Shown here piece after piece: positions 3,622-29,495 of a stretch of 38,250 nucleotides of DNA. The notes under the pieces were generated by a model that was not told the DNA's origin, did not search any database, and saw only the letters and a list, made by a program, of their open reading frames with translations. Every line of letters begins with the position of its first letter. Within the stretch, counting starts at the first letter, position 1. The stretch is from a virus (Duplodnaviria; Heunggongvirae; Uroviricota; Caudoviricetes): the IMG/VR virus record IMGVR_UViG_2687453297_000004; one strand, written 5' to 3'. The position numbers were made by a program, and so were the translations under genes.

Positions 3622-4827
3622 TTAAACCCCTTTGACAACGTCAGCGTTGACCTGTGGAACCCCGATTTCAGCGGCCAGATTCATGGCGGCTATTACCAGG
3701 TTACTGACGGCCAGCGGATACAGCAGGCTGACCATATTTTTACGATGACTTCCCGGATTGCTCAGGCGGGCACGTATGGCATCCACTGCGCTGGCGTCCA
3801 TAATGTCCGTCAGTTGTTTACCGGCCCGTTGCAGTTTGAACGTCAGAAACTCTTCAAGGTTATTGTCCAGAGGCAGAAGTTCGACCACCTCACAGCGCTG
3901 AACGACTTCACGGACTTCCATATTGCGTTCAGACAGTTTTGTCGCCAGTTCCGGCTGGCCAATCAGCACGATGGACAGCAGTTTTTTGAAACCGGACTCC
4001 AGCTCAAAAAAGCGTTTGAGGTGTTTCAGTGTCGGAATGGGCAGACTGTGGGCCTCCTCAATCACCAGAACGTGGCTGAACCCCGCCTGGCTGCTGTCTT
4101 TCAGGACGCGATGCAACTGGCGAAAGCGGGCGTCCTGACTGCGTCTGATGCTTTCCAGTGGTGCGATGGTACTGATAATGGCTTCGGCAATCGCTGCTGC
4201 CTTCAGGGTTTTCCCTTTCACATCGTTGTCTTCCATAGCGATGATGTATGGCTCGATAACAATTACCGGCGCATTCTCGCGGTTGATACGTTCAGTCAGG
4301 TCGCGGCGCAGCGTGGATTTACCCGCACCGGACTCACCGATGACGGCCATAAATCCACCATGACGGGCTGTCTGGTACAGCGCCTCACGCACATAGCGGA
4401 TGTCCGGGGTGGTGAACACATCATCAGAACCCTGCATGGCTTCGTCGGCGAACGGGTCACGGAAAAGACCAAACGCTTTTTTGGTTGCTGGAAATAACAC
4501 CTGTTTTTTGAGTAACATATTCTCTTCCTCACTGAGGCTCGTTTTATCTGTGGTACCCGCTGTACGGGGCGTGGCCGCGACCTGTACAGCATCAAAACTC
4601 TTCGTTGTATCAATCCCCTGACTTTCCAGCCAGGACGCAAGACGCCGGCGCACTTCTCCGGGGCGGGTGCGGGGCCACGCGTTATGATTCACAATCTGGG
4701 CCAGCGTGGCCTCAGAAACATCGACAGCTCTCGCCACCACCGCCTGTGAGATACGGGCCTCTTTCAGTTGCTGCTTCAGTACCAGCATGTTTTCCTCCTC
4801 AGTTGCCGTTAACAATGCTGATAACAC
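3622..4827 (-). CDS. MuB-like AAA+ transposition ATPase (target DNA activator)
   Basis: 401 aa; Walker A GESGAGKST; N-terminal HTH-like segment; lies immediately downstream of and overlapping the transposase gene, as B follows A in Mu. Confidence 0.75.
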   Translation of the reverse strand: MLSALLTATEEENMLVLKQQLKEARISQAVVARAVDVSEATLAQIVNHNAWPRTRPGEVRRRLASWLESQGIDTTKSFDAVQVAATPRTAGTTDKTSLSEEENMLLKKQVLFPATKKAFGLFRDPFADEAMQGSDDVFTTPDIRYVREALYQTARHGGFMAVIGESGAGKSTLRRDLTERINRENAPVIVIEPYIIAMEDNDVKGKTLKAAAIAEAIISTIAPLESIRRSQDARFRQLHRVLKDSSQAGFSHVLVIEEAHSLPIPTLKHLKRFFELESGFKKLLSIVLIGQPELATKLSERNMEVREVVQRCEVVELLPLDNNLEEFLTFKLQRAGKQLTDIMDASAVDAIRARLSNPGSHRKNMVSLLYPLAVSNLVIAAMNLAAEIGVPQVNADVVKGV

Positions 4828-6568
4828 TGCTGCGGGCCGGCGTGGTCAGCGTGGCCATGACTTCATCCAGTGCGGCTTCCGGTACGCCGTCCGGGTACTG
4901 TGCCGTTAACTGGCGGTAATGTTCCGGCGTCCAGGTAAGGCCGTCGGCGCTGAACTTATCGCGCAGGGCTTTCGCGGCCTCCACATGAGTCATGGGACGT
5001 TGTTCAGTGCGCGGCCCGCGTACGTCAGAGGCCTGACCGCGCTTCGGCATATAGGCCGGAAGTGTGGCGTCATCAATATGTTTATACGGGTCAAGCCGCC
5101 CGCCGAACGGCAGCGCCTTCGCCTTGCGTGCGGCAGCTGCATCTGTGGCGTTGTCTGTACCGGTGACCAGTGCTTCAGTTTCTTTTGCCGCCGTCTGCGC
5201 CGGTGTTTCCGGCAGGGCTTTGTAACTTTCGCCAAATACCGCCGCGCCTTCAGCAAAGCCAAACTCGTTCTTTCTGACCTCTTCGACCAGGAAGAACGTC
5301 TCGTGGCCGTCCTCACCGGTCAGAACCACCTGTGCCACATCGCTGCGCCACGGGTTACGGGTAATCATCAGTTTTTCACCGACCAGTACGCCCGGTACCG
5401 TTGATACGTCAAATTCAGTGCCCCGGAACGAGACACGAAGTTTTGGCGTGACTTTGCGGAGTTCTGGCGCCGCCACAGCCAGTTCACGACATACCTCAAC
5501 GGAAGGCGCTTTTTTCAGCTGCTCAGCAGTAATCTTCAGCCAGATATCCGTGCGGGTTTTACCGTGGCGGCTGTGAACAGCCGTGGCGTTAAAGTGGCTG
5601 CGCCATTTCGCGGCCAGCGCGTTGAGTTCTTCCAGACTGTGAACCGGCCGGAACTTCAGACCCGGCTCCAGCTTGCGTTCGATAATGTCTCGCGCCTTTT
5701 CCACCTGTCCGGTGGCGCGGGCGTTATGCGGCTTGTGCGCTATCAGGTCAATGCCCAGTGAGCGGCACATGTTTTTCGTCATACCCGCGGTGTTTGCCGA
5801 GCCGGGGTCGAGATAGAGTATTTTTGGCACGCCGTGCAGCACGTCTGCGCCGCCACGCTCCTGCATGGCGTTGATAAGCACAGAACACAGGTTCTCACCG
5901 GATTCCGCACCCGTCACATACTCAACGTAAATCCAGCCGCTGGCATGGTCGGTAATCTCATAACTCCACACGCGGTCACTGGCGATACGGGCAAGGTTAG
6001 CGGGCTTGTTCTTGTAGAATTTCGCGCTGTCCATCACCTGCAGCCCTTTGTGTCCATTGCTCAAGTAGTAAAGCGTGCAGAGCGAGGCATCAATCTGCCA
6101 GACATGATTGGGATGCAGACTGGCCACTTCGGTATGCGGCGCAGGGGCATCCAGTTGTTCCGGGTGCAGGCCATAGTTACGCAGGGCACGGCTGATGGCA
6201 TCTTCGGACAACGGGAAAAACTCACCGGTGGTTTCATCTGTTCTGCCTGCGGAGATAAAGCCGTTAGCCCGCAGGGTTTCCACTGCATCCGCGATGGAAT
6301 AGAGACGCTTACCGTTCTTGCGGGTGGCCTCACGCAGTGTGGCAGATATCAGCGCGGCTTCGTCGCGGGTCAGGGCGCTGCGCCCGGCATCGGCGCGTTT
6401 TTTGCGTTTATCAGTCACAGAGACCTCCTTCAGCCTGCGCAGCAGAGTGGCGCGGGACATGCCAAGTTCAGCACAGGCAGCGTCGTATATTGCACCGCGT
6501 TTACCATGCCCCGCGTCACGTGCCGCGCGGGCGACATAAACCAGTCGTTCAGTCAGGGCAGCATTCAT
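4799..6568 (-). CDS. DDE transposase (Mu/rve integrase-core type)
   Basis: 589 aa; N-terminal HTH region; candidate DDE residues in HVWQIDAS, LYLDPGS and GQVEKA; position between the Ner-like and MuB-like genes. Confidence 0.85.
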   Translation of the reverse strand: MNAALTERLVYVARAARDAGHGKRGAIYDAACAELGMSRATLLRRLKEVSVTDKRKKRADAGRSALTRDEAALISATLREATRKNGKRLYSIADAVETLRANGFISAGRTDETTGEFFPLSEDAISRALRNYGLHPEQLDAPAPHTEVASLHPNHVWQIDASLCTLYYLSNGHKGLQVMDSAKFYKNKPANLARIASDRVWSYEITDHASGWIYVEYVTGAESGENLCSVLINAMQERGGADVLHGVPKILYLDPGSANTAGMTKNMCRSLGIDLIAHKPHNARATGQVEKARDIIERKLEPGLKFRPVHSLEELNALAAKWRSHFNATAVHSRHGKTRTDIWLKITAEQLKKAPSVEVCRELAVAAPELRKVTPKLRVSFRGTEFDVSTVPGVLVGEKLMITRNPWRSDVAQVVLTGEDGHETFFLVEEVRKNEFGFAEGAAVFGESYKALPETPAQTAAKETEALVTGTDNATDAAAARKAKALPFGGRLDPYKHIDDATLPAYMPKRGQASDVRGPRTEQRPMTHVEAAKALRDKFSADGLTWTPEHYRQLTAQYPDGVPEAALDEVMATLTTPARSSVISIVNGN

Positions 6569-23220: not shown

Positions 23221-23471
23221 TGAAAGAATACCGCTATTCCGGCCCGGCCAGCGGCGTCACGCTGTCGGACGGAACCGAAATCCTGCTCTGGCCGGGGAAG
23301 ACGGTTTCCCTGCCGGAGGAGCATGACTACGTGAAGGTACTGGTGGCGCTGAAACATCTGACGCCGGTACCTGAAGAGACTAAACCCGCCGGCACACCGG
23401 CTGTGCAGTCACCAAAGCGCAGAAGCAGCAGTGACAGCGAAGTGAAAACGGAGGACACCCATGGCAGCTAA
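23217..23471 (+). CDS. Small protein upstream of the sheath gene (Mu gp38-like)
   Basis: 84 aa; overlapping start and stop with both neighbours. Confidence 0.45.
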   Translation: MMKEYRYSGPASGVTLSDGTEILLWPGKTVSLPEEHDYVKVLVALKHLTPVPEETKPAGTPAVQSPKRRSSSDSEVKTEDTHGS

Positions 23472-24888
23472 CTATCTGCATGGTCCCGAAACCATTGAGG
23501 TGGAAAACGGTGCCCGCCCGGTTAAAACGGTGAAATCTGCCGTTATTGGCCTGATTGGTACCGCCCCGATGGGGGATGTCAATACGCTGGTACAGTGCCT
23601 GTCTGAGAAAGACGCAGCGGCATTTGGCAGCCAGTTCACCGGCTTTACCATTCCGCAGGCGCTGGATGCGATTTATGACCATGGTGCAGGTACCGTTCTG
23701 GTCATTAACGTCCTCGACCCGGCGAAACATAAAACGGCGATCGAGGATGAGGTGGTTACCTTTGACAAATCGACAGGGCAGGCCAGACTGGCGCATCCGG
23801 TTGTCGCTAATGTGGTGGTGAAAAACAGTGAAGGCAGCACCACCCACACGGCGAACACGGACTACCGTGTTGATGCGCAGGCGGGTGTGCTCACGAACCT
23901 GGGCAAGGCTATTGAGGCCGGTGGCAGCGTGAAGGTGAGCTATGAGTACGCGGACCCGTCGAAGGTGACTGCGGCGGACATCATCGGCGGGGTGAACAGC
24001 GCCGGAAACCGAACCGGCATGAAGCTGCTTAACGACAGCTTCAACCTGTACGGCTATTTCGCCAAAATTCTGATTGCGCCGGTGTTCTGCACCCAGAAGA
24101 GTGTCGCAGTTGAGCTTATCGCCATGGCAGAGAAGCTGGGCGCGGTAACCTACATTGATGCGCCTGTCGGTACCACCTTTGCACAGGCTCTGGCAGGTCG
24201 TGGCCCGGAAGGCACCATCAACTTCAATACCAGCTCCGACCGCGTCCGTCTGTGCTATCCGCATGTGAAGGTATATGACCCGGTGACAAACACAGAGCGT
24301 CTGGAGCCGCTCAGCCAGCGTGCAGCAGGTCTGCGTGCCAGAGTCGATCTGGACAAGGGCTACTGGTGGTCATCCTCCAATCAGGAGATTCTGGGGATCA
24401 CCGGCGTGGAGCGCCAGCTGTCCGCGATGATTGATGACCCGCAGAGTGAGGTGAACCTGCTTAACGAACAGGGGATCACCACGGTATTCAGCAGTTACGG
24501 CAGCGGCCTTCGTCTGTGGGGTAACCGGACGGCAGCATGGCCAACGGTCACCCATATGCGTAACTTTGAGAACGTTCGCCGCACCGGTGATGTGATCAAC
24601 GAGTCCATTCGTTATTTCAGCCAGCAGTACATCGACATGCCGATTACTCAGGCGCTGATTGATGCACTGACGGAGTCGGTCAACGCCTACGGTCGCAAAA
24701 TGACTGGTGATGGTGCGGTACTGGGCTTCCGTTGCTGGTTTGATCCGGCCCGCAATCCGGAGACGGAGCTGGCCGCCGGGCACCTGTTGCTGAGCTACAA
24801 ATATACGCCACCACCGCCGCTGGAGCGACTGACGTTTGAGACTGAGATCACCTCGGAATACCTGTTAACCCTGAAAGGGGGCAACTGA
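23461..24888 (+). CDS. Contractile tail sheath protein
   Basis: 475 aa; immediately followed by the tube gene. Confidence 0.85.
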   Translation: MAANYLHGPETIEVENGARPVKTVKSAVIGLIGTAPMGDVNTLVQCLSEKDAAAFGSQFTGFTIPQALDAIYDHGAGTVLVINVLDPAKHKTAIEDEVVTFDKSTGQARLAHPVVANVVVKNSEGSTTHTANTDYRVDAQAGVLTNLGKAIEAGGSVKVSYEYADPSKVTAADIIGGVNSAGNRTGMKLLNDSFNLYGYFAKILIAPVFCTQKSVAVELIAMAEKLGAVTYIDAPVGTTFAQALAGRGPEGTINFNTSSDRVRLCYPHVKVYDPVTNTERLEPLSQRAAGLRARVDLDKGYWWSSSNQEILGITGVERQLSAMIDDPQSEVNLLNEQGITTVFSSYGSGLRLWGNRTAAWPTVTHMRNFENVRRTGDVINESIRYFSQQYIDMPITQALIDALTESVNAYGRKMTGDGAVLGFRCWFDPARNPETELAAGHLLLSYKYTPPPPLERLTFETEITSEYLLTLKGGN

Positions 24889-25409
24889 TGTCAAAGATTG
24901 AGATAAACCGCATCACGAATGCCAACATCTATCTGGATGGTACTAACCTGCTGGGACGGGCTGAGGAAGTTAAACTCCCCGATGTCTCCATGATTATGCA
25001 GGAACACAAGGCGCTGGGGATGGTGGGTAAGGTGGAACTCCCGGCTGGTTTTGACAAACTGGAAGGCGAAATCAAATGGAACAGCTTTTACCGCGATGCG
25101 ATGCTGTCTGCCGCGAACCCGTACAGGTCGCTGGCACTGCAGTGTCGTTCCAGCGTCCAGCGCTACAGCTCGCAGGGGCTGATTGACGAAATCCCGCTGG
25201 TCACCTTCCTGACGATTATGTTCAAGAAGAACCCGCTGGGGACGTTCAAACAGCACGAGAACGCCGAGTTCTCCAGTAGCTTCACCTGCACGTATATCAG
25301 ACAGGTACTGGATGGTGAAGAGCTGCTGCAACTGGACTATCTGGCCAACATCTTCCGGGTCGGCGGTGTTGATCAACTGACTGACTACCGTATCAATATC
25401 GGGGGCTGA
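24888..25409 (+). CDS. Tail tube protein
   Basis: 173 aa; ATGA overlap with the sheath gene. Confidence 0.8.
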   Translation: MSKIEINRITNANIYLDGTNLLGRAEEVKLPDVSMIMQEHKALGMVGKVELPAGFDKLEGEIKWNSFYRDAMLSAANPYRSLALQCRSSVQRYSSQGLIDEIPLVTFLTIMFKKNPLGTFKQHENAEFSSSFTCTYIRQVLDGEELLQLDYLANIFRVGGVDQLTDYRINIGG

Positions 25410-25411
25410 CG

Positions 25412-25693
25412 GTGAGTGTTGAACTGACGGATAAAGGAGGACGATGTGCGGCACTGGGCATGTCAAATGGTACGTGGTTTACCCTCCTTGATATTCCGGG
25501 GGTGGAAACCCTTTTTAATACCCGTAAAACCAATGACCCGATTGACTGCACACGTTCAAAGGCCCGCAAACTGGCGGATTTGATTGAAGCATGGGAGCCT
25601 CCCGACCACTGGTTCTCCGGCACCGGCAAATCTGAGGGAAAGACGCTTCTCATCGCTTTCCTGCGTAACTGCAAGGGGTTTCGCACTTGCTGA
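25412..25693 (+). CDS. Hypothetical protein downstream of the tube gene
   Basis: 93-aa ORF from GTG 25412; weak start signals. Confidence 0.3.
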   Translation: MSVELTDKGGRCAALGMSNGTWFTLLDIPGVETLFNTRKTNDPIDCTRSKARKLADLIEAWEPPDHWFSGTGKSEGKTLLIAFLRNCKGFRTC

Positions 25694-25699
25694 CATCAC

Positions 25700-25722
25700 A
25701 GGGGCTCCGGCCCCTTCTTCTT
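25700..25722 (+). terminator. Candidate intrinsic terminator/attenuator after the sheath-tube genes
   Basis: AGGGGC-TCCG-GCCCCT hairpin followed by TCTTCTT. Confidence 0.35.
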
Positions 25723-25790
25723 AATCTCCTTTAATATCCGTCACGCGCTTCTCCCGACATACTGCCCTGAACTTACACAGGAGCACAATC

Positions 25791-26126
25791 ATGTCACAGA
25801 CCCCATCCGATACTTTTAAATTGTCTTATCCCTTCACCACTGCTGCAGGCACCAGAATTGAGCTGGTTGAACTGAAACGCCTGACGGTAAAAGACCTGAA
25901 GCAGGTGCGCAAAATCAGCAAAAACCCGGCAGACTGGGACGAACCGCTGATTGCCCGCAGTACTGGTCTTCTCCCGGAAGATCTCGACAATATGGATCTG
26001 GCTGATTACCTGCAGTTACAGAAACGATTTCAGCTCATCACGGGGATGGGTGAGAGCAACCAGGGCGCTGACGCAGGCGCAGGGGCTGCTGGCGAGATGG
26101 TTCCGGTTTCAGCCGGGGGAGATTGA
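25791..26126 (+). CDS. Tail assembly chaperone (short form)
   Basis: 111 aa; SD AGGAG upstream; located between tube and tape measure genes, with an overlapping ORF in another frame. Confidence 0.6.
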   Translation: MSQTPSDTFKLSYPFTTAAGTRIELVELKRLTVKDLKQVRKISKNPADWDEPLIARSTGLLPEDLDNMDLADYLQLQKRFQLITGMGESNQGADAGAGAAGEMVPVSAGGD

Positions 26127-26208
26127 TGCCCTCGATACTGACGATCTGGAGATGTGGCTGGAGCAGGCTGAAGAGCAAATCAAAAGCGAGTACGGCGACA
26201 AATCATAG
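25791..26208 (+). CDS. Tail assembly chaperone, frameshift-extended long form (predicted shift at the G5 run about 26115..26119)
   Basis: A second ORF (25951..26208) overlaps the 3' end of the chaperone ORF and lies in the +1 (equivalently -2) frame relative to it; GGGGG run sits 2 codons before the stop. Confidence 0.4.
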
Positions 26209-26283
26209 TACAGACAGCCGCCAGTAGCGGCTGTTCTGCGTTATCCCCTCACGTCTTTTCACCTTCCCCGGAGGTTAACCACT

Positions 26284-29200
26284 ATGTCGGGACAGTTTTC
26301 AGTCGGCGTTGTTATCGGCGGGATGATTGGCAGCACATTCCGTTCTGCAATGAGCGGTACCCGCCGTGCGCTTGATTCCCTGAGCGATACCTCACGCCGC
26401 CTGCAGGAACGTCAGAACGCTTTAACCCGTGCAACAGAACGTTATGGTCAACTGGGTTCTTCCCGGATGCAGCATCTCAACAGCGAGCTGCTGCGGGTAA
26501 GCCGCACCATGGAGCAAATTGAGCGCCAGCAGCGCCGTCTGTCAGCGGCATCCGCTACCAGTGATGCGCTGAAAGCTAACCGCATGGCGCTGTATGGTCA
26601 GGGGATTGAAGCGTATGGCATGGCACAGACTGTTTATCATACGGTTTCCCCTGCCGTTCAGCAGTCCATGTCTTTTCAGGACAAAATGATTGATATGTCG
26701 ATCACCGCAAAATATGACAATAAAACGCGGGATGCACTTGCCGGACAGATAAAAGGCTGGGCGCTTAAATACAATCAGTATCAGGATGAGCTGCAGGAGG
26801 CGGTGGGTTCACTCATCAGCGACAATATTGATAATGTGTCAGATATCGGTTTTCTGATGCCGGATATTGCCCGCGCGACAACGGCAACACGCACGTCTGC
26901 TCAGGACTGGGCAAAAGTGGCCGCAGTCTGGCAAAACTCCCTGAAAGGTGCGGCCAGAGATTTTGGTGCCGTTCAGAATATTATGGCTTATGCCGGTGAC
27001 CAGGGGTCATTTGAAATCCCGGATCAGGTCAAGTGGATGCAGTCCCTGGCCCCAATGATGGCGGGTATTGCCAGTGGAAAAGAGGCTGTTGCTGAAATCG
27101 GGGCCAGTCTCCAGATAGCAAAAATCGGTGCAGGTTCCACCGACGAAGCAGCCAATAATTTTAAAAACTTTCTTACCAAAATTTTTGCCCGCGATACTCA
27201 GAAACAGTTTGCTGATCTGGGTATTGATTTGCAGGGATCTATTGCGAGTTATAAGGCTGCGGGGATCTCTCCGATTGAAGGGATGTTGAGTGTTATAGAA
27301 CGTTACCTCAATGCCAAAAGCCCCGAAGCGCTGGCCGGCTTCAAATCCGCCATGAAAATAAAGAATGATACGGCAAGAGATGAGGCACTTCAGGCTCTGG
27401 CGAAAAACTTTGGTCTGGGTGATATGTTCGCGGATATGCAGGTCATGGCATTTATCCGCCCGATGCTGGCCAACATGGACAGATATCGAGAGATCCGTGC
27501 CGGTGCTCTCAGGGCTGCGGATAACGATTTGCTTGCCAGTGCTTACGATCAGCGACTGAAATCTCCCCTTGAAGCCACTAAAACACTTATGGTCAGCAGT
27601 CGCGATCTGGCAATTACGCTGGGCGATCAATTAGCTCCATCTTTTATTTCTTTGACTCAGGAACTGCTTCCACTCATTCAGGGGGCAAAACACTGGGTAG
27701 CGACTCACCCGCAATTTGTCAGTGGGGCTTTTAAGCTCATCAGTGCGCTCCTTGCGATTAAGATAGCGACTGTTGGTCTCAAACTGGGGCTGAATCTCCT
27801 TATTTCCCCCTTTGTAAGTGTCTGGAAAAATGCTGTTTTACTCCGGACCAACTGGCATCGACTGACTACCGCACTCGGAGAAGGTGGCAAATTACGCTGG
27901 CTTGTCACTGGATTCAGCCGACTGACCAGCGGAGGACTGAAACTCAGCAAAGTTCTGGCGGGCAGCCTCGTTCGCGGTTTTATGAGCGCTGCACGTGCCG
28001 TTCTCTGGATTGGGCGAGCGCTGATGATGAATCCCATCGGTCTCGTTATCACCGCTGTCGCGGCAGCAGCTTACCTTATCTACCGCAACTGGGGGCTGTC
28101 AGTGGTTGGTTTAAACAGCGCTGGGCTGACATTCAGGAAGCCTTTAACGGCGGCATTGTGGGAACTGGTAAGTTGCTGATTAACTGGTCGCCGGCAGGCC
28201 TGCTCTATAAAGCCTTTGCGGCTGCGCTGAAATATTTCGGCGTTGCTCTGCCGGCAAAGTTCACCGACTTCGGTGGCCATCTTATCGACGGTCTGATTAA
28301 CGGTATCAAAAGCAAATGGGGGTCGCTCAAATCCAGTGTAACCGGAATGGGTGACAGCATCAGTAGCTGGTTTAAACAGCGCTGGGCTGACATTCAGGAA
28401 GCCTTTAACGGCGGCATTGTGGGAACTGGTAAGTTGCTGATTAACTGGTCGCCGGCAGGCCTGCTCTATAAAGCCTTTGCGGCTGCGCTGAAATATTTCG
28501 GCGTTACTCTGCCGGCAAAGTTCACCGACTTCGGTGGCCATCTTATCGACGGTCTGATTAACGGTATCAAAAACAAATGGGGGTCGCTCAAATCCAGTGT
28601 AACCGGAATGGGTGACAGCATCAGTAGCTGGTTTAAACAGTGCTGGGCTGACATTCAGGAAGCCTTTAACGGCGGTATCGCGGGAACTGATAAGCTGCTG
28701 ATTAACTGGTCGCCGGCAGGTCTGCTCTATAAAGCCTTTGCAGCTGCGCTGAAATATCTTGGTGTTGATCTGCCGGCAAAGTTTACCGACTTCGGTGGCC
28801 ATCTTGTCGATGGTCTGATTAACGGTATCAAAAACAAATGGGAGTCGCTCAAATCCAGTGTAACCGGAATGGGCGACAGCATCAGTGGCTGGTTCAGCGA
28901 AAAGCTGGGCATTCATTCGCCGAGCCGCGTGTTTATGGGCTTTGGTGACAATATCGCGCAGGGGGCCGCCATTGGCCTGCAGCGGACCACTCCGCTTGCA
29001 GCTCTGGCCGGGCAGCGAATGGCCAGTGAACTGCTCCCCAAAATGCCCGTGAGCATTCAGGGGCCAGAAATACGGGATAACACTTCAGGTGTTCGCTTCA
29101 GTATGCCGTTGCCCGATATCAATGGGTTTATGTCGTCTGCTAAAAATGCGATCGGAGCCGTAATCAATAGTTTGTCTTCCATGCCCGCTATTCCGCTCTC

Positions 29201-29495
29201 CACCCGGGCATCGATTTTACCAGGGCAACGTCTGGCAAATGAGATGACACCGGATGTTCCCCGTATCCCCTCGCCTGAAATCCTGGCTGCCGGATATTCA
29301 GGCCGTGGTGCAGCTGCAACCGGCGGTGGAACGTCTGGTGGTATCCAGGTCAGCTTTAATCCTCAGTTTTTCCTCAATGGCAGGGAAACCACAGCGCCTG
29401 CAGGACTGACTGGTGCCCTGAATATGAGTCTGCATGAGCTGGAAAAAATGCTGGAGCGTCTGCTGGCTCAGAAACAACGTAAGGAGTACCGCTGA
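26284..29495 (+). CDS. Tail tape measure protein, interrupted by an apparent frameshift at a G5 run (28091..28095)
   Basis: ORFs 26284..28179 and 28158..29495 are in different frames; the protein-like reading switches frame at TGGGGGCTG, and one extra G would fuse them in frame; the C-terminal part contains three tandem 87-aa repeats. Confidence 0.7.
28098..28892 (+). repeat. Three tandem copies of a 261-bp (87-aa) coding repeat within the tape measure gene
   Basis: Near-identical units starting about 28110, 28371 and 28632; matching antisense ORFs at 28205, 28466 and 28727 are spaced exactly 261 bp apart. Confidence 0.9.

What the first reader, a model, noticed from the sequence alone, without database searches (positions are those of the whole stretch)
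26100..26126. Tail chaperone frameshift that is +1/-2 rather than the usual -1
The extension ORF (25951..26208) is in the +1 frame relative to the chaperone ORF (25791..26126). The only obvious slippery element is GCC GGG GGA GAT TGA, a G5 run two codons before the stop. Most tail-chaperone programmed frameshifts are -1 on XXXYYYZ heptamers, so a +1 or -2 slip on a G-run near a stop codon would be the less common mechanism.
Basis: partly seen in the sequence, partly recalled or inferred. Interest (0 to 1): 0.5.

Follow-up and report, generated by a model that had tools for sequence, protein, structure and literature searches.

The report
Tail chaperone +1 frameshift, site relocated

Summary
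A 111-codon tail assembly chaperone ORF (25791..26126, Pfam PF10109) is overlapped by an ORF open in the +1 frame (25951..26208), between the tail tube and tape-measure genes of a BcepMu-like E. coli prophage. A G5 run lies at 26115-26119.

The proposed slip site is wrong. In 97 unique homologues, purifying selection switches from frame 0 to frame +1 about 90 nt upstream of the G-run. In many relatives the frame-0 stop lies before the G-run, or the run is absent. The run simply encodes Pro-Gly-Glu of the conserved +1 peptide LLARWFRFQPGEID, which is homologous to P2 E'.

Across 173 unique +1-type loci the two frames can only be joined within -8..+18 nt of one Phe codon. All 173 have exactly one in-frame TTT_C there. 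None of 6 relatives that use the -1 frame has it.

In the window the motif is CGA_UUU_C (26025-26031). CGA is used in 96/97 sequences and TTT in 97/97, against the gene's codon preference.

The best explanation is a +1 programmed frameshift at UUU_C giving a 138-aa long form. No conserved start codon or RNA structure was found. The product is unannotated in the records examined. Nothing has been tested experimentally.

The parts
25791..26126 (+). Short form of the tail assembly chaperone (111 aa, frame 0). The conserved core is residues 1-80. Residues 81-111 are a poorly constrained tail read across the overlapping +1 frame.
   Evidence: Pfam PF10109 over residues 8-81, E=5.5e-21. Frame-0 omega is 0.22 in the core, 0.81 just after the site and >1 further on. 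The position of the frame-0 stop varies from +18 to +108 nt after the Phe codon among relatives.
26025..26031 (+). Proposed +1 frameshift signal CGA_UUU_C (Arg79, Phe80, first base of codon 81). tRNA-Phe moves from UUU (26028-26030) to UUC (26029-26031).
   Evidence: CGA in 96/97 and TTT in 97/97 unique sequences, with the next base always C. Two other conserved Arg positions use CGC/CGT, with CGA in 1/97 and 0/89 of the Arg codons there. It is the only in-frame TTT_C in the gene. 173/173 unique +1-type loci have exactly one in-frame TTT_C in the overlap, against 0/6 -1-type loci. The region where a shift is possible in every locus is -8..+18 nt around this codon.
26032..26208 (+). +1-frame extension: 58 codons plus stop (SSSRGWVRATRALTQAQGLLARWFRFQPGEIDALDTDDLEMWLEQAEEQIKSEYGDKS). 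The predicted long form is 25791..26030 joined to 26032..26208, 138 aa.
   Evidence: Translation. +1-frame omega is 0.47, 0.09, 0.11 and 0.22 in successive segments. Trp at +19 is TGG in 97/97, and Gly at +16 uses all four codons. hhalign of the extension profile against P2 E': probability 89.7%, E=1.9e-6. Weak Pfam PF06528 match of 18.4 bits, below the cut-off of 23.
26115..26119 (+). Here it is read as the +1-frame codons CCG GGG GAG (Pro-Gly-Glu) and is not the shift site.
   Evidence: The run length is stable: exact G5 in 583 of 636 complete E. coli genomes that carry the region, and G4 in none.
25951..26024 (+). Part of the +1-frame ORF that is open in this window but not under +1-frame selection. 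It is open by chance and is closed by stops in relatives as late as 11 nt before the TTT.
   Evidence: +1-frame omega is 1.19 in the core. The last upstream +1-frame stop lies at -11 in Pandoraea and Verminephrobacter prophages, Ralstonia phage YO107_2 and Pseudomonas phage Komp_PAO1_1.
24888..25409 (+). Tail tube gene (context).
   Evidence: PF04985, E=2.9e-53.
26284..28179 (+). Tape-measure gene, 5' part (context). In this copy it is split at a G-run.
   Evidence: PF10145. Comparison with the intact RefSeq copy.

Best explanation
The gene encodes two proteins with a shared N-terminus, as in lambda G/GT and P2 E/E+E'. Most ribosomes read frame 0 and make the 111-aa chaperone. A minority shift +1 at CGA_UUU_C (26025-26031), most likely when peptidyl-tRNA-Phe (anticodon GAA) re-pairs from UUU (G:U wobble) to the overlapping UUC (Watson-Crick). 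They then read 58 further codons in the +1 frame to the stop at 26206-26208. The 138-aa long form joins the 80-residue chaperone core to an E'-like domain (LLARWFRFQPGEID...W...QIK). By analogy with lambda gpGT, this domain should link the tape-measure/chaperone complex to the tail tube protein during tail assembly. The conserved 5' CGA codon is read by tRNA-Arg(ICG) through a weak I:A wobble and probably raises the shift frequency. Shown here: the frame relation, where selection changes frame, the invariance of the motif, homology of the extension to P2 E', and the absence of a conserved start or RNA structure. Inferred: that the shift is ribosomal, its tRNA-level mechanism, its efficiency, and the function of the long form.
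For: (1) The switch of selection between frames maps to the Phe80 codon. Frame 0 has omega 0.22 upstream, and frame +1 has 0.47-0.09 downstream (97 unique sequences). The same holds in the window's own sublineage. (2) Position. +1-frame stops occur as late as -11 nt, and frame-0 stops as early as +18 nt. A shift at a homologous position must therefore lie within -8..+18 nt of the TTT. Trp at +19 in the +1 frame is invariant, while the overlapping frame-0 residues vary only in ways that keep TGG. (3) Motif. There is exactly one in-frame TTT_C in 173/173 unique +1-type loci, including clades with under 35% chaperone identity. None of 6 -1-type relatives has it; three of these carry TTT_A at that Phe. 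(4) Synonymous constraint. CGA is used in 96/97 and TTT in 97/97 sequences, whereas other two-fold sites are about 50:50 and other Arg positions use CGC/CGT. CGA makes up 12/180 Arg codons in the window's tail genes. (5) The extension is homologous to P2 E' from AQGLLARWF onward. (6) No conserved start: 21/97 sequences have no ATG/GTG/TTG in the +1 frame before the invariant Trp. (7) Literature. TTT_C is among the most efficient +1 tetramers in an E. coli cell-free screen (bioRxiv 10.1101/2025.10.02.679949). UCC_UUU_CGU is the influenza PA-X +1 site (PMC3498833), and BcepMu carries TCC_TTT_CGC at this position. CGA can replace GCG in the yeast Ty3 +1 site, and CGA_AAG is a B. subtilis shift site (PMC5009743).
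Against: There is no experimental evidence of any kind here. The frame-0 codon after UUU is CAG in the window, which is neither a stop nor a notably rare codon, unlike classic +1 sites. No Shine-Dalgarno-like or RNA-structure stimulator was found, so efficiency may be low. The Phe is also conserved as an amino acid (P2 has Phe at its own -1 site), so part of the TTT conservation could be protein-level. CGA is absent in 52/173 loci, most of which have UUU_CGN instead. The dN/dS figures come from all-pairs counts without phylogenetic correction. Some prophage copies are probably defective.
Confidence: 0.8

Rival explanations
1. Same site and same product, but a different tRNA-level mechanism (Ty3-like). 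With tRNA-Arg(ICG) on CGA in the P site, the distorted I:A wobble lets incoming Phe-tRNA pair out of frame with UUC instead of UUU, without slippage of a P-site tRNA. This reading is nested within the best explanation's site call.
For: CGA is kept in 96/97 enterobacterial-type sequences against codon preference. CGA is one of the few codons that can replace GCG in the Ty3 +1 site, and CGA_AAG and IS1222 shifts also involve I:A apposition (PMC5009743).
Against: 52/173 +1-type loci lack CGA but keep UUU_C. The element common to all loci is therefore UUU_C and not CGA.
Confidence: 0.25
2. One reading: a -2 or +1 slip on the G5 run (GCC GGG GGA GAT TGA, 26112-26126), as in phage Mu. It would give a 138- or 139-aa product ...VSAG(G)EIDALD....
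For: The G5 run is in the overlap and GGG_G allows re-pairing. Mu gp41 uses a verified -2 shift and its overlap holds CGG GGG CGA.
Against: +1-frame purifying selection starts about 90 nt upstream of the run, also within the window's own sublineage. The frame-0 stop precedes the run in the 104-aa variants, and the run is absent in 37/97 sequences. The product would lack the E'-homologous LLARWFRFQP.
Confidence: 0.04
3. A +1 slip at the other in-frame GGG_G (GCA GGG GCT, 26082-26085), giving ...DAGAG-LLARWF....
For: The tetramer allows perfect re-pairing, and the product would keep LLARWFRFQP.
Against: That codon is GGC or AGC in 34/97 sequences. The conserved +1-frame residues upstream of it (Trp at +19, Leu at +40, Ala at +49) would not be translated. 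Relatives have frame-0 stops at +18 to +45, before this position.
Confidence: 0.03
4. The downstream ORF is translated independently from its own start codon, and there is no frameshift.
For: In the window the +1 frame holds a TTG at 25951 and a GTG at 26050.
Against: No start position is conserved, and 21/97 sequences have no start codon at all before the invariant Trp. In several clades the +1 frame opens only 8 nt before the TTT with no start codon. Homologues in P2 and Mu are made as fusions.
Confidence: 0.03

Closest known systems
Phage P2 gpE / gpE+E' (-1 frameshift at GGT TTT TTG)
   Same: Same Pfam chaperone family (PF10109), and the same position between tube and tape-measure genes. 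The extension is homologous (hhalign 89.7%). The long forms are similar in size (142 against 138 aa). In both, the shift involves a UUU Phe codon at the end of the chaperone domain (P2 Phe84 at about profile position 77; window Phe80 at about 74, estimated from hit end-points).
   Different: P2 shifts -1 on a U6G heptamer 7 codons before the frame-0 stop. Here the extension is in the +1 frame, the motif is CGA_UUU_C, and it lies 32 codons before the frame-0 stop. A residue-level alignment of the two chaperones could not be obtained.
Phage Mu gp41 / Mu_56 (verified -2 frameshift)
   Same: A chaperone of a transposable myovirus whose extension lies in the +1/-2 frame. It matches PF10109 weakly. 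This shows that non -1 chaperone shifts are already known (PMC3498833, PMC5009743).
   Different: Mu's overlap has a G5 run (CGG GGG CGA) and no UUU_C at the junction. Mu gp41 belongs chiefly to PF23746, which the window protein does not match. In the window's family the G-run is not the site.
Lambda gpG / gpGT
   Same: The functional model: two products in a fixed ratio, the long form linking tape measure to tube, and neither present in the virion (PMC5009743).
   Different: -1 shift on a G_GGA_AAG-type heptamer (from my own knowledge). No detectable sequence similarity was sought or found here.
+1 shifts at UUU_Y: influenza A PA-X (UCC_UUU_CGU), E. coli UUU-pyrimidine sites, Yersinia YopN-TyeA
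   Same: tRNA-Phe can re-pair from UUU to UUC. BcepMu-clade relatives carry TCC_TTT_CGC, nearly the PA-X motif (PMC3498833).
   Different: Those sites rely on a slowly decoded following codon or are regarded as errors. Here the following codon is CAG, and a 5' CGA is conserved instead.
Burkholderia phage BcepMu gp41/gp42
   Same: Orthologous arrangement: the gp41 chaperone with gp42 in the +1 frame and the same extension motif.
   Different: The GenBank record calls gp42 the G-like protein and gp43 its slippage product. This does not match the conserved architecture. No record examined annotates the gp41 to gp42 +1 fusion.

Membership tests
Tail assembly chaperone with programmed frameshift (lambda G/GT, P2 E/E+E' type) | The gene lies between the major tail/tube gene and the tape-measure gene. 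| tested here: met
   Tube 24888..25409, chaperone 25791..26126, tape measure 26284...
Tail assembly chaperone with programmed frameshift (lambda G/GT, P2 E/E+E' type) | The upstream ORF belongs to a chaperone family. | tested here: met
   PF10109 Phage_TAC_7, 74.8 bits against a cut-off of 25.
Tail assembly chaperone with programmed frameshift (lambda G/GT, P2 E/E+E' type) | There is an overlapping ORF in another frame, conserved as protein and without its own conserved start. | tested here: met
   +1-frame omega 0.09-0.47. No conserved start. 173 unique +1-type loci.
Tail assembly chaperone with programmed frameshift (lambda G/GT, P2 E/E+E' type) | The extension is homologous to a known T/E' domain. 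| tested here: inconclusive
   Pfam PF06528 scores 18.4 bits, below the cut-off of 23. Profile against P2 E': probability 89.7%, E=1.9e-6 over 33 columns.
Tail assembly chaperone with programmed frameshift (lambda G/GT, P2 E/E+E' type) | Canonical -1 slippery heptamer X_XXY_YYZ. | tested here: not met
   The extension is in the +1 frame and no such heptamer is needed or present at the junction. This feature is typical of the family but not defining, since Mu uses -2.
Tail assembly chaperone with programmed frameshift (lambda G/GT, P2 E/E+E' type) | The fusion protein is actually made and is required for tail assembly. | not testable with these tools
   Needs western blot or mass spectrometry, and genetics.
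Mu-type -2 frameshift on a G-run | The slip occurs on the G-run within the overlap. | tested here: not met
   Selection on the +1 frame begins upstream of the run. The run is absent, or lies after the frame-0 stop, in many relatives.
Mu-type -2 frameshift on a G-run | The chaperone is of the Gp41_Mu family (PF23746). | tested here: not met
   The window protein matches only PF10109, whereas Mu gp41 matches PF23746 at 119.5 bits.
+1 frameshift by tRNA-Phe re-pairing at UUU_Y | An in-frame UUU followed by a pyrimidine at the point where the frames join. | tested here: met
   TTT_C at 26028-26031, and in 173/173 unique +1-type loci.
+1 frameshift by tRNA-Phe re-pairing at UUU_Y | A slowly decoded frame-0 codon (rare or stop) follows the slippery codon. 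| tested here: inconclusive
   CAG in the window, CGN in 48/173 relatives, never a stop. tRNA supply was not measurable here.
+1 frameshift by tRNA-Phe re-pairing at UUU_Y | The junction peptide shows one Phe followed by +1-frame residues. | not testable with these tools
   Needs protein sequencing or mass spectrometry.

The most novel reading that the evidence does not exclude
CGA_UUU_C (with the alternative UUU_CGN) would be a distinct, stimulator-free bacterial +1 recoding signal. An Arg CGN codon read by the inosine tRNA-Arg(ICG), placed directly next to a UUU_C tetramer (168/173 loci), would set the shift frequency. The signal would have been conserved across gamma- and beta-proteobacterial myophage tail chaperones, while sister lineages of the same gene family use -1 (P2, Pasteurellaceae) or -2 (Mu). 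The family would then be a natural series for studying how the direction of a frameshift changes while the two-product output is kept.
Probability: 0.3. Interest if true: 0.6.

Novelty: new variant of a known kind. Interest (0 to 1): 0.4.

Why it matters
Practical. This prophage type is present in 640 of 5426 complete E. coli genomes. The long chaperone form, expected to be essential for tail assembly, is not annotated in RefSeq or in the phage records examined. An annotation rule (join at TTT_C in PF10109 genes that have a +1 E'-like ORF) would fix this.

Mechanistic. Natural bacterial +1 frameshift signals that do not use a stop codon are few. A 7-nt motif with a conserved CGA and no detectable stimulator is easy to test in reporters.

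Methodological. Choosing the homopolymer nearest the stop codon picks the wrong site here. Comparing which frame is under selection locates the site to within about 25 nt.

Tried and rejected
1. The G5 run as the slip site was rejected.

2. The G5 run as a variable or phase-switching tract. A fused 138-aa protein (...VSAGEIDALD..., G4 instead of G5) is on 242 contigs of the large collection. However, none of 636 complete RefSeq E. coli genomes has G4 and 583 have exact G5. I read these as homopolymer errors in draft assemblies or rare mutants. Other fused database proteins (P0023, P0060, L044, L149, L014) are single-base indels at various places, consistent with errors or decaying prophages.

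3. A conserved RNA stimulator. RNAalifold finds only 6 pairs with no covariation (-3.5 kcal/mol). The window's own fold has z=-0.84.

4. An own start for ORF2 was rejected.

5. Residue-level alignment of the chaperone with P2 gpE by hhalign failed (probability 0.5%). The statement that the P2 and window sites are homologous positions therefore rests only on Pfam hit end-points.

6. No solved structure matches the predicted fusion by sequence.

7. Xu et al. 2004 (Mol Cell) could not be read. I cannot exclude that it lists a +1 prediction for a relative. Literature searches for BcepMu-like chaperone frameshifts found nothing.

8. Structure prediction was not attempted, because a fusion sequence is not a contiguous window translation.

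Full report
**What is there.** The window carries the tail module of a BcepMu-like (Bcepmuvirus) transposable prophage of E. coli. It is 99.8% identical over 601 nt to Escherichia phage PhiKM. The same region is present in 640 of 5426 complete E. coli genomes. The gene order is sheath (23461..24888), tube (24888..25409), a 93-aa ORF, a 111-codon ORF (25791..26126) and the tape-measure gene (26284..). The 111-codon ORF is a tail assembly chaperone of Pfam family PF10109, described as "E, or 41 or 14" (E=5.5e-21). This family includes P2 gpE and, weakly, Mu gp41. A second ORF is open in the +1 frame from 25951 to 26208. The chaperone ends GCC GGG GGA GAT TGA, with a G5 run at 26115-26119.

**Known background.** Tail chaperone genes of tailed phages usually make two proteins through a programmed frameshift. 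-1 is the rule, Mu uses a verified -2 at about 2% efficiency, and +1 is also reported (PMC5009743, PMC3498833, PMC2628397). The Mu record annotates the -2 product, and Mu's overlap contains CGG GGG CGA.

**Comparative data.** I collected homologous loci with flanking DNA from bacterial genomes and IMG/VR. These were 65 and 80 loci with an enterobacterial profile and 80 with a BcepMu/beta-proteobacterial profile. I added phage records. The +1-frame peptide ...LLARWFRFQP[GS]EIDxL...W...QIK.E... is conserved from E. coli to Pectobacterium, Photorhabdus, Pandoraea, Pseudomonas and Burkholderia phages.

**The G-run is not conserved.**
- Most relatives have CCG AGT GAG at that place.
- In 37/97 unique sequences the Gly codon is replaced by Ser.
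- In the very common 104-aa variants the frame-0 stop (GTT TAG) lies upstream of the run.
- Substitutions in TGG TTY CGN/AGR TTY CAG, just upstream of the run, are silent in the +1 frame but missense or nonsense in frame 0.

**Where selection changes frame.** Nei-Gojobori counts were made on 97 unique sequences with identical spacing. Positions are in nt from the first T of the Phe80 codon TTT.

| Segment | Frame 0 omega | Frame +1 omega |
|---|---|---|
| Chaperone core | 0.22 | 1.19 |
| +4..+54 | 0.81 | 0.47 |
| +55..+75 | 42 | 0.09 |
| +76..+96 (includes the G-run) | 5.1 | 0.11 |
| Rest of the extension | not listed | 0.22 |

The same pattern holds in the 22 unique sequences of the window's own type (111 aa, with a G5 run). 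In the 33 nt upstream of the run, frame +1 has pS 0.284 and pN 0.011. Frame 0 has pS 0.011 and pN 0.115. Ribosomes that make the long form are therefore already in the +1 frame well before the G-run. In that frame the run simply encodes Pro-Gly-Glu.

**Locating the site.** Across 173 unique +1-type loci, the last +1-frame stop upstream lies as late as 11 nt before the TTT. The frame-0 stop lies as early as 18 nt after it. A shift at a homologous position must therefore fall within -8..+18 nt. Within that interval the +1-frame Trp at +19 is TGG in 97/97 sequences, and the Gly at +16 uses all four codons. The overlapping frame-0 codons vary only as NTG and GNN, which is the signature of +1-frame constraint.

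The only slippery element in the interval is an in-frame TTT_C.
- Every one of the 173 loci has exactly one in-frame TTT_C in the overlap.
- None of six relatives whose E'-like ORF is in the -1 frame has it (Pasteurella/Haemophilus types with CAA AAG GGA AAG). Three of these have TTT_A at that Phe.
- In the enterobacterial set the motif is CGA_TTT_C: CGA in 96/97 and TTT in 97/97 sequences, with the next base always C.
- Other two-fold sites in the gene are about 50:50, and two other conserved Arg positions use CGC/CGT (CGA 1/97 and 0/89).
- CGA is 12 of 180 Arg codons in the window's tail genes.
- In other clades the context is NNN_TTT_CGN (48 loci; BcepMu has TCC_TTT_CGC). 168/173 loci have a CGN Arg codon directly next to the TTT.

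In the window the motif is at 26025-26031, 96 nt upstream of the frame-0 stop. It is the only in-frame TTT_C in the gene.

**The product.** Joining 25791..26030 to 26032..26208 gives a 138-aa protein: the 80-residue chaperone core followed by SSSRGWVRATRALTQAQGLLARWFRFQPGEIDALDTDDLEMWLEQAEEQIKSEYGDKS. A profile of the extensions aligns with P2 E' from AQGLLARWF to ...EQAEE (hhalign probability 89.7%, E=1.9e-6). Pfam PF06528 (Phage_P2_GpE) matches weakly, at 18.4 bits against a cut-off of 23. P2's E+E' is 142 aa. Its -1 site (GGT TTT TTG) also uses a Phe codon at the end of the chaperone domain. A residue-level alignment of the two chaperones could not be obtained.

**Mechanism.** The most economical reading is a +1 shift of peptidyl-tRNA-Phe from UUU (G:U wobble) to UUC (G:C). 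Three published observations fit this.
- TTT_C is among the most efficient +1 tetramers in an E. coli cell-free screen.
- UCC_UUU_CGU is the influenza PA-X +1 site.
- UUU-pyrimidine sites are cited as prone to +1 shifts.

The conserved CGA is read through an I:A wobble. CGA can replace GCG in the yeast Ty3 +1 site, and CGA_AAG is a B. subtilis shift site. CGA may act from the E site. Alternatively, as a Ty3-like variant, it may act from the P site and promote out-of-frame decoding of UUC. Both routes give the same protein.

A -2 shift is not plausible at CGA_UUU_C, because there is no re-pairing. No conserved RNA structure and no conserved start codon were found. The codon after UUU (CAG) is not a classic slow codon, so I expect a low efficiency. 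That is what chaperone systems normally use.

**Status in databases and literature.** RefSeq/PGAP annotates only the 111-aa "phage tail assembly protein". PhiKM, KP12, Komp_PAO1_1, vB_E274 and Bise likewise annotate no fusion. The BcepMu record proposes a different gp42/gp43 slippage that does not fit the conserved architecture. The exact predicted fusion sequence is absent from a collection of 15 billion proteins. I found no paper describing this site. Xu et al. 2004 was not readable.

**Verdict.** The frame relation and the claim that this is not the usual -1 shift are right. The proposed site and the Mu-like mechanism are not supported. The feature is a new variant of a known kind: a chaperone frameshift that uses a conserved CGA_UUU_C +1 signal far from the stop codon. 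All of this is computational. The site call is strong (about 0.8), and the tRNA-level mechanism is inference.

Noticed in passing
window 28092-28096 (tape-measure gene 26284..28179 and 28158..29495): The tape-measure gene is split into 631-aa and 445-aa ORFs by a G-run one base shorter (G5) than in RefSeq E. coli copies (G6, a single 1070-aa protein). Almost all of 614 complete genomes carry the longer run. This copy is therefore either defective or has a homopolymer error.
   Followed up: partly
window about 28099-28894: There are three tandem copies of a roughly 261-nt (87-aa) repeat inside the tape-measure gene, 92-96% identical to each other.
   Followed up: no
window 25700-25725: A terminator-like hairpin (AGGGGCTCCGGCCCCT followed by TCTTCTT) lies between the 93-aa ORF and the chaperone gene, inside the tail operon.
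   Followed up: no
window 26215-26233: A hairpin CAGCCGC-cagta-GCGGCTG lies just after the stop of the +1 extension and before the tape-measure start. It was seen by eye and not flagged by the terminator scan.
   Followed up: no
window 25412..25693: A 93-aa ORF between the tube and chaperone genes has a sub-threshold match to DUF7739 (24.6 bits against a cut-off of 27). It is annotated as hypothetical in PhiKM, KP12 and RefSeq.
   Followed up: no
window 26104-26110 (+1 frame): The +1 frame itself contains CGG_TTT_C (encoding ...FRFQ...), echoing the frame-0 CGA_TTT_C (...KRFQ...). Its codons are not synonymously conserved (TTT 76 / TTC 16; four Arg codons), so it is probably a coincidence.
   Followed up: partly
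public protein collection; G-run at window 26115-26119: A 138-aa protein equal to the window gene with G4 instead of G5 (...VSAGEIDALD...) is recorded on 242 contigs, including NCBI BDY93827.1. It is absent from all 636 complete RefSeq genomes that carry the region.
   Followed up: yes
L004 (BcepMu AY539836) 4603-5364: The GenBank annotation of BcepMu gp42 as the lambda G-like protein and gp43 as its slippage product does not fit. gp41 is the PF10109 chaperone and gp42 is its +1-frame E'-like extension. In the related phage vB_E274, the region corresponding to gp43 holds a gene on the opposite strand.
   Followed up: partly
L044 (Apirhabdus apintestini CP138906) about 1700-1915: This is a natural constitutive fusion. 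A 1-nt deletion 14 nt upstream of the TTT puts the chaperone core in frame with the whole E'-like extension. L149 and L014 instead carry an indel at or beside the G-run. These are probably decaying prophages or assembly errors.
   Followed up: partly
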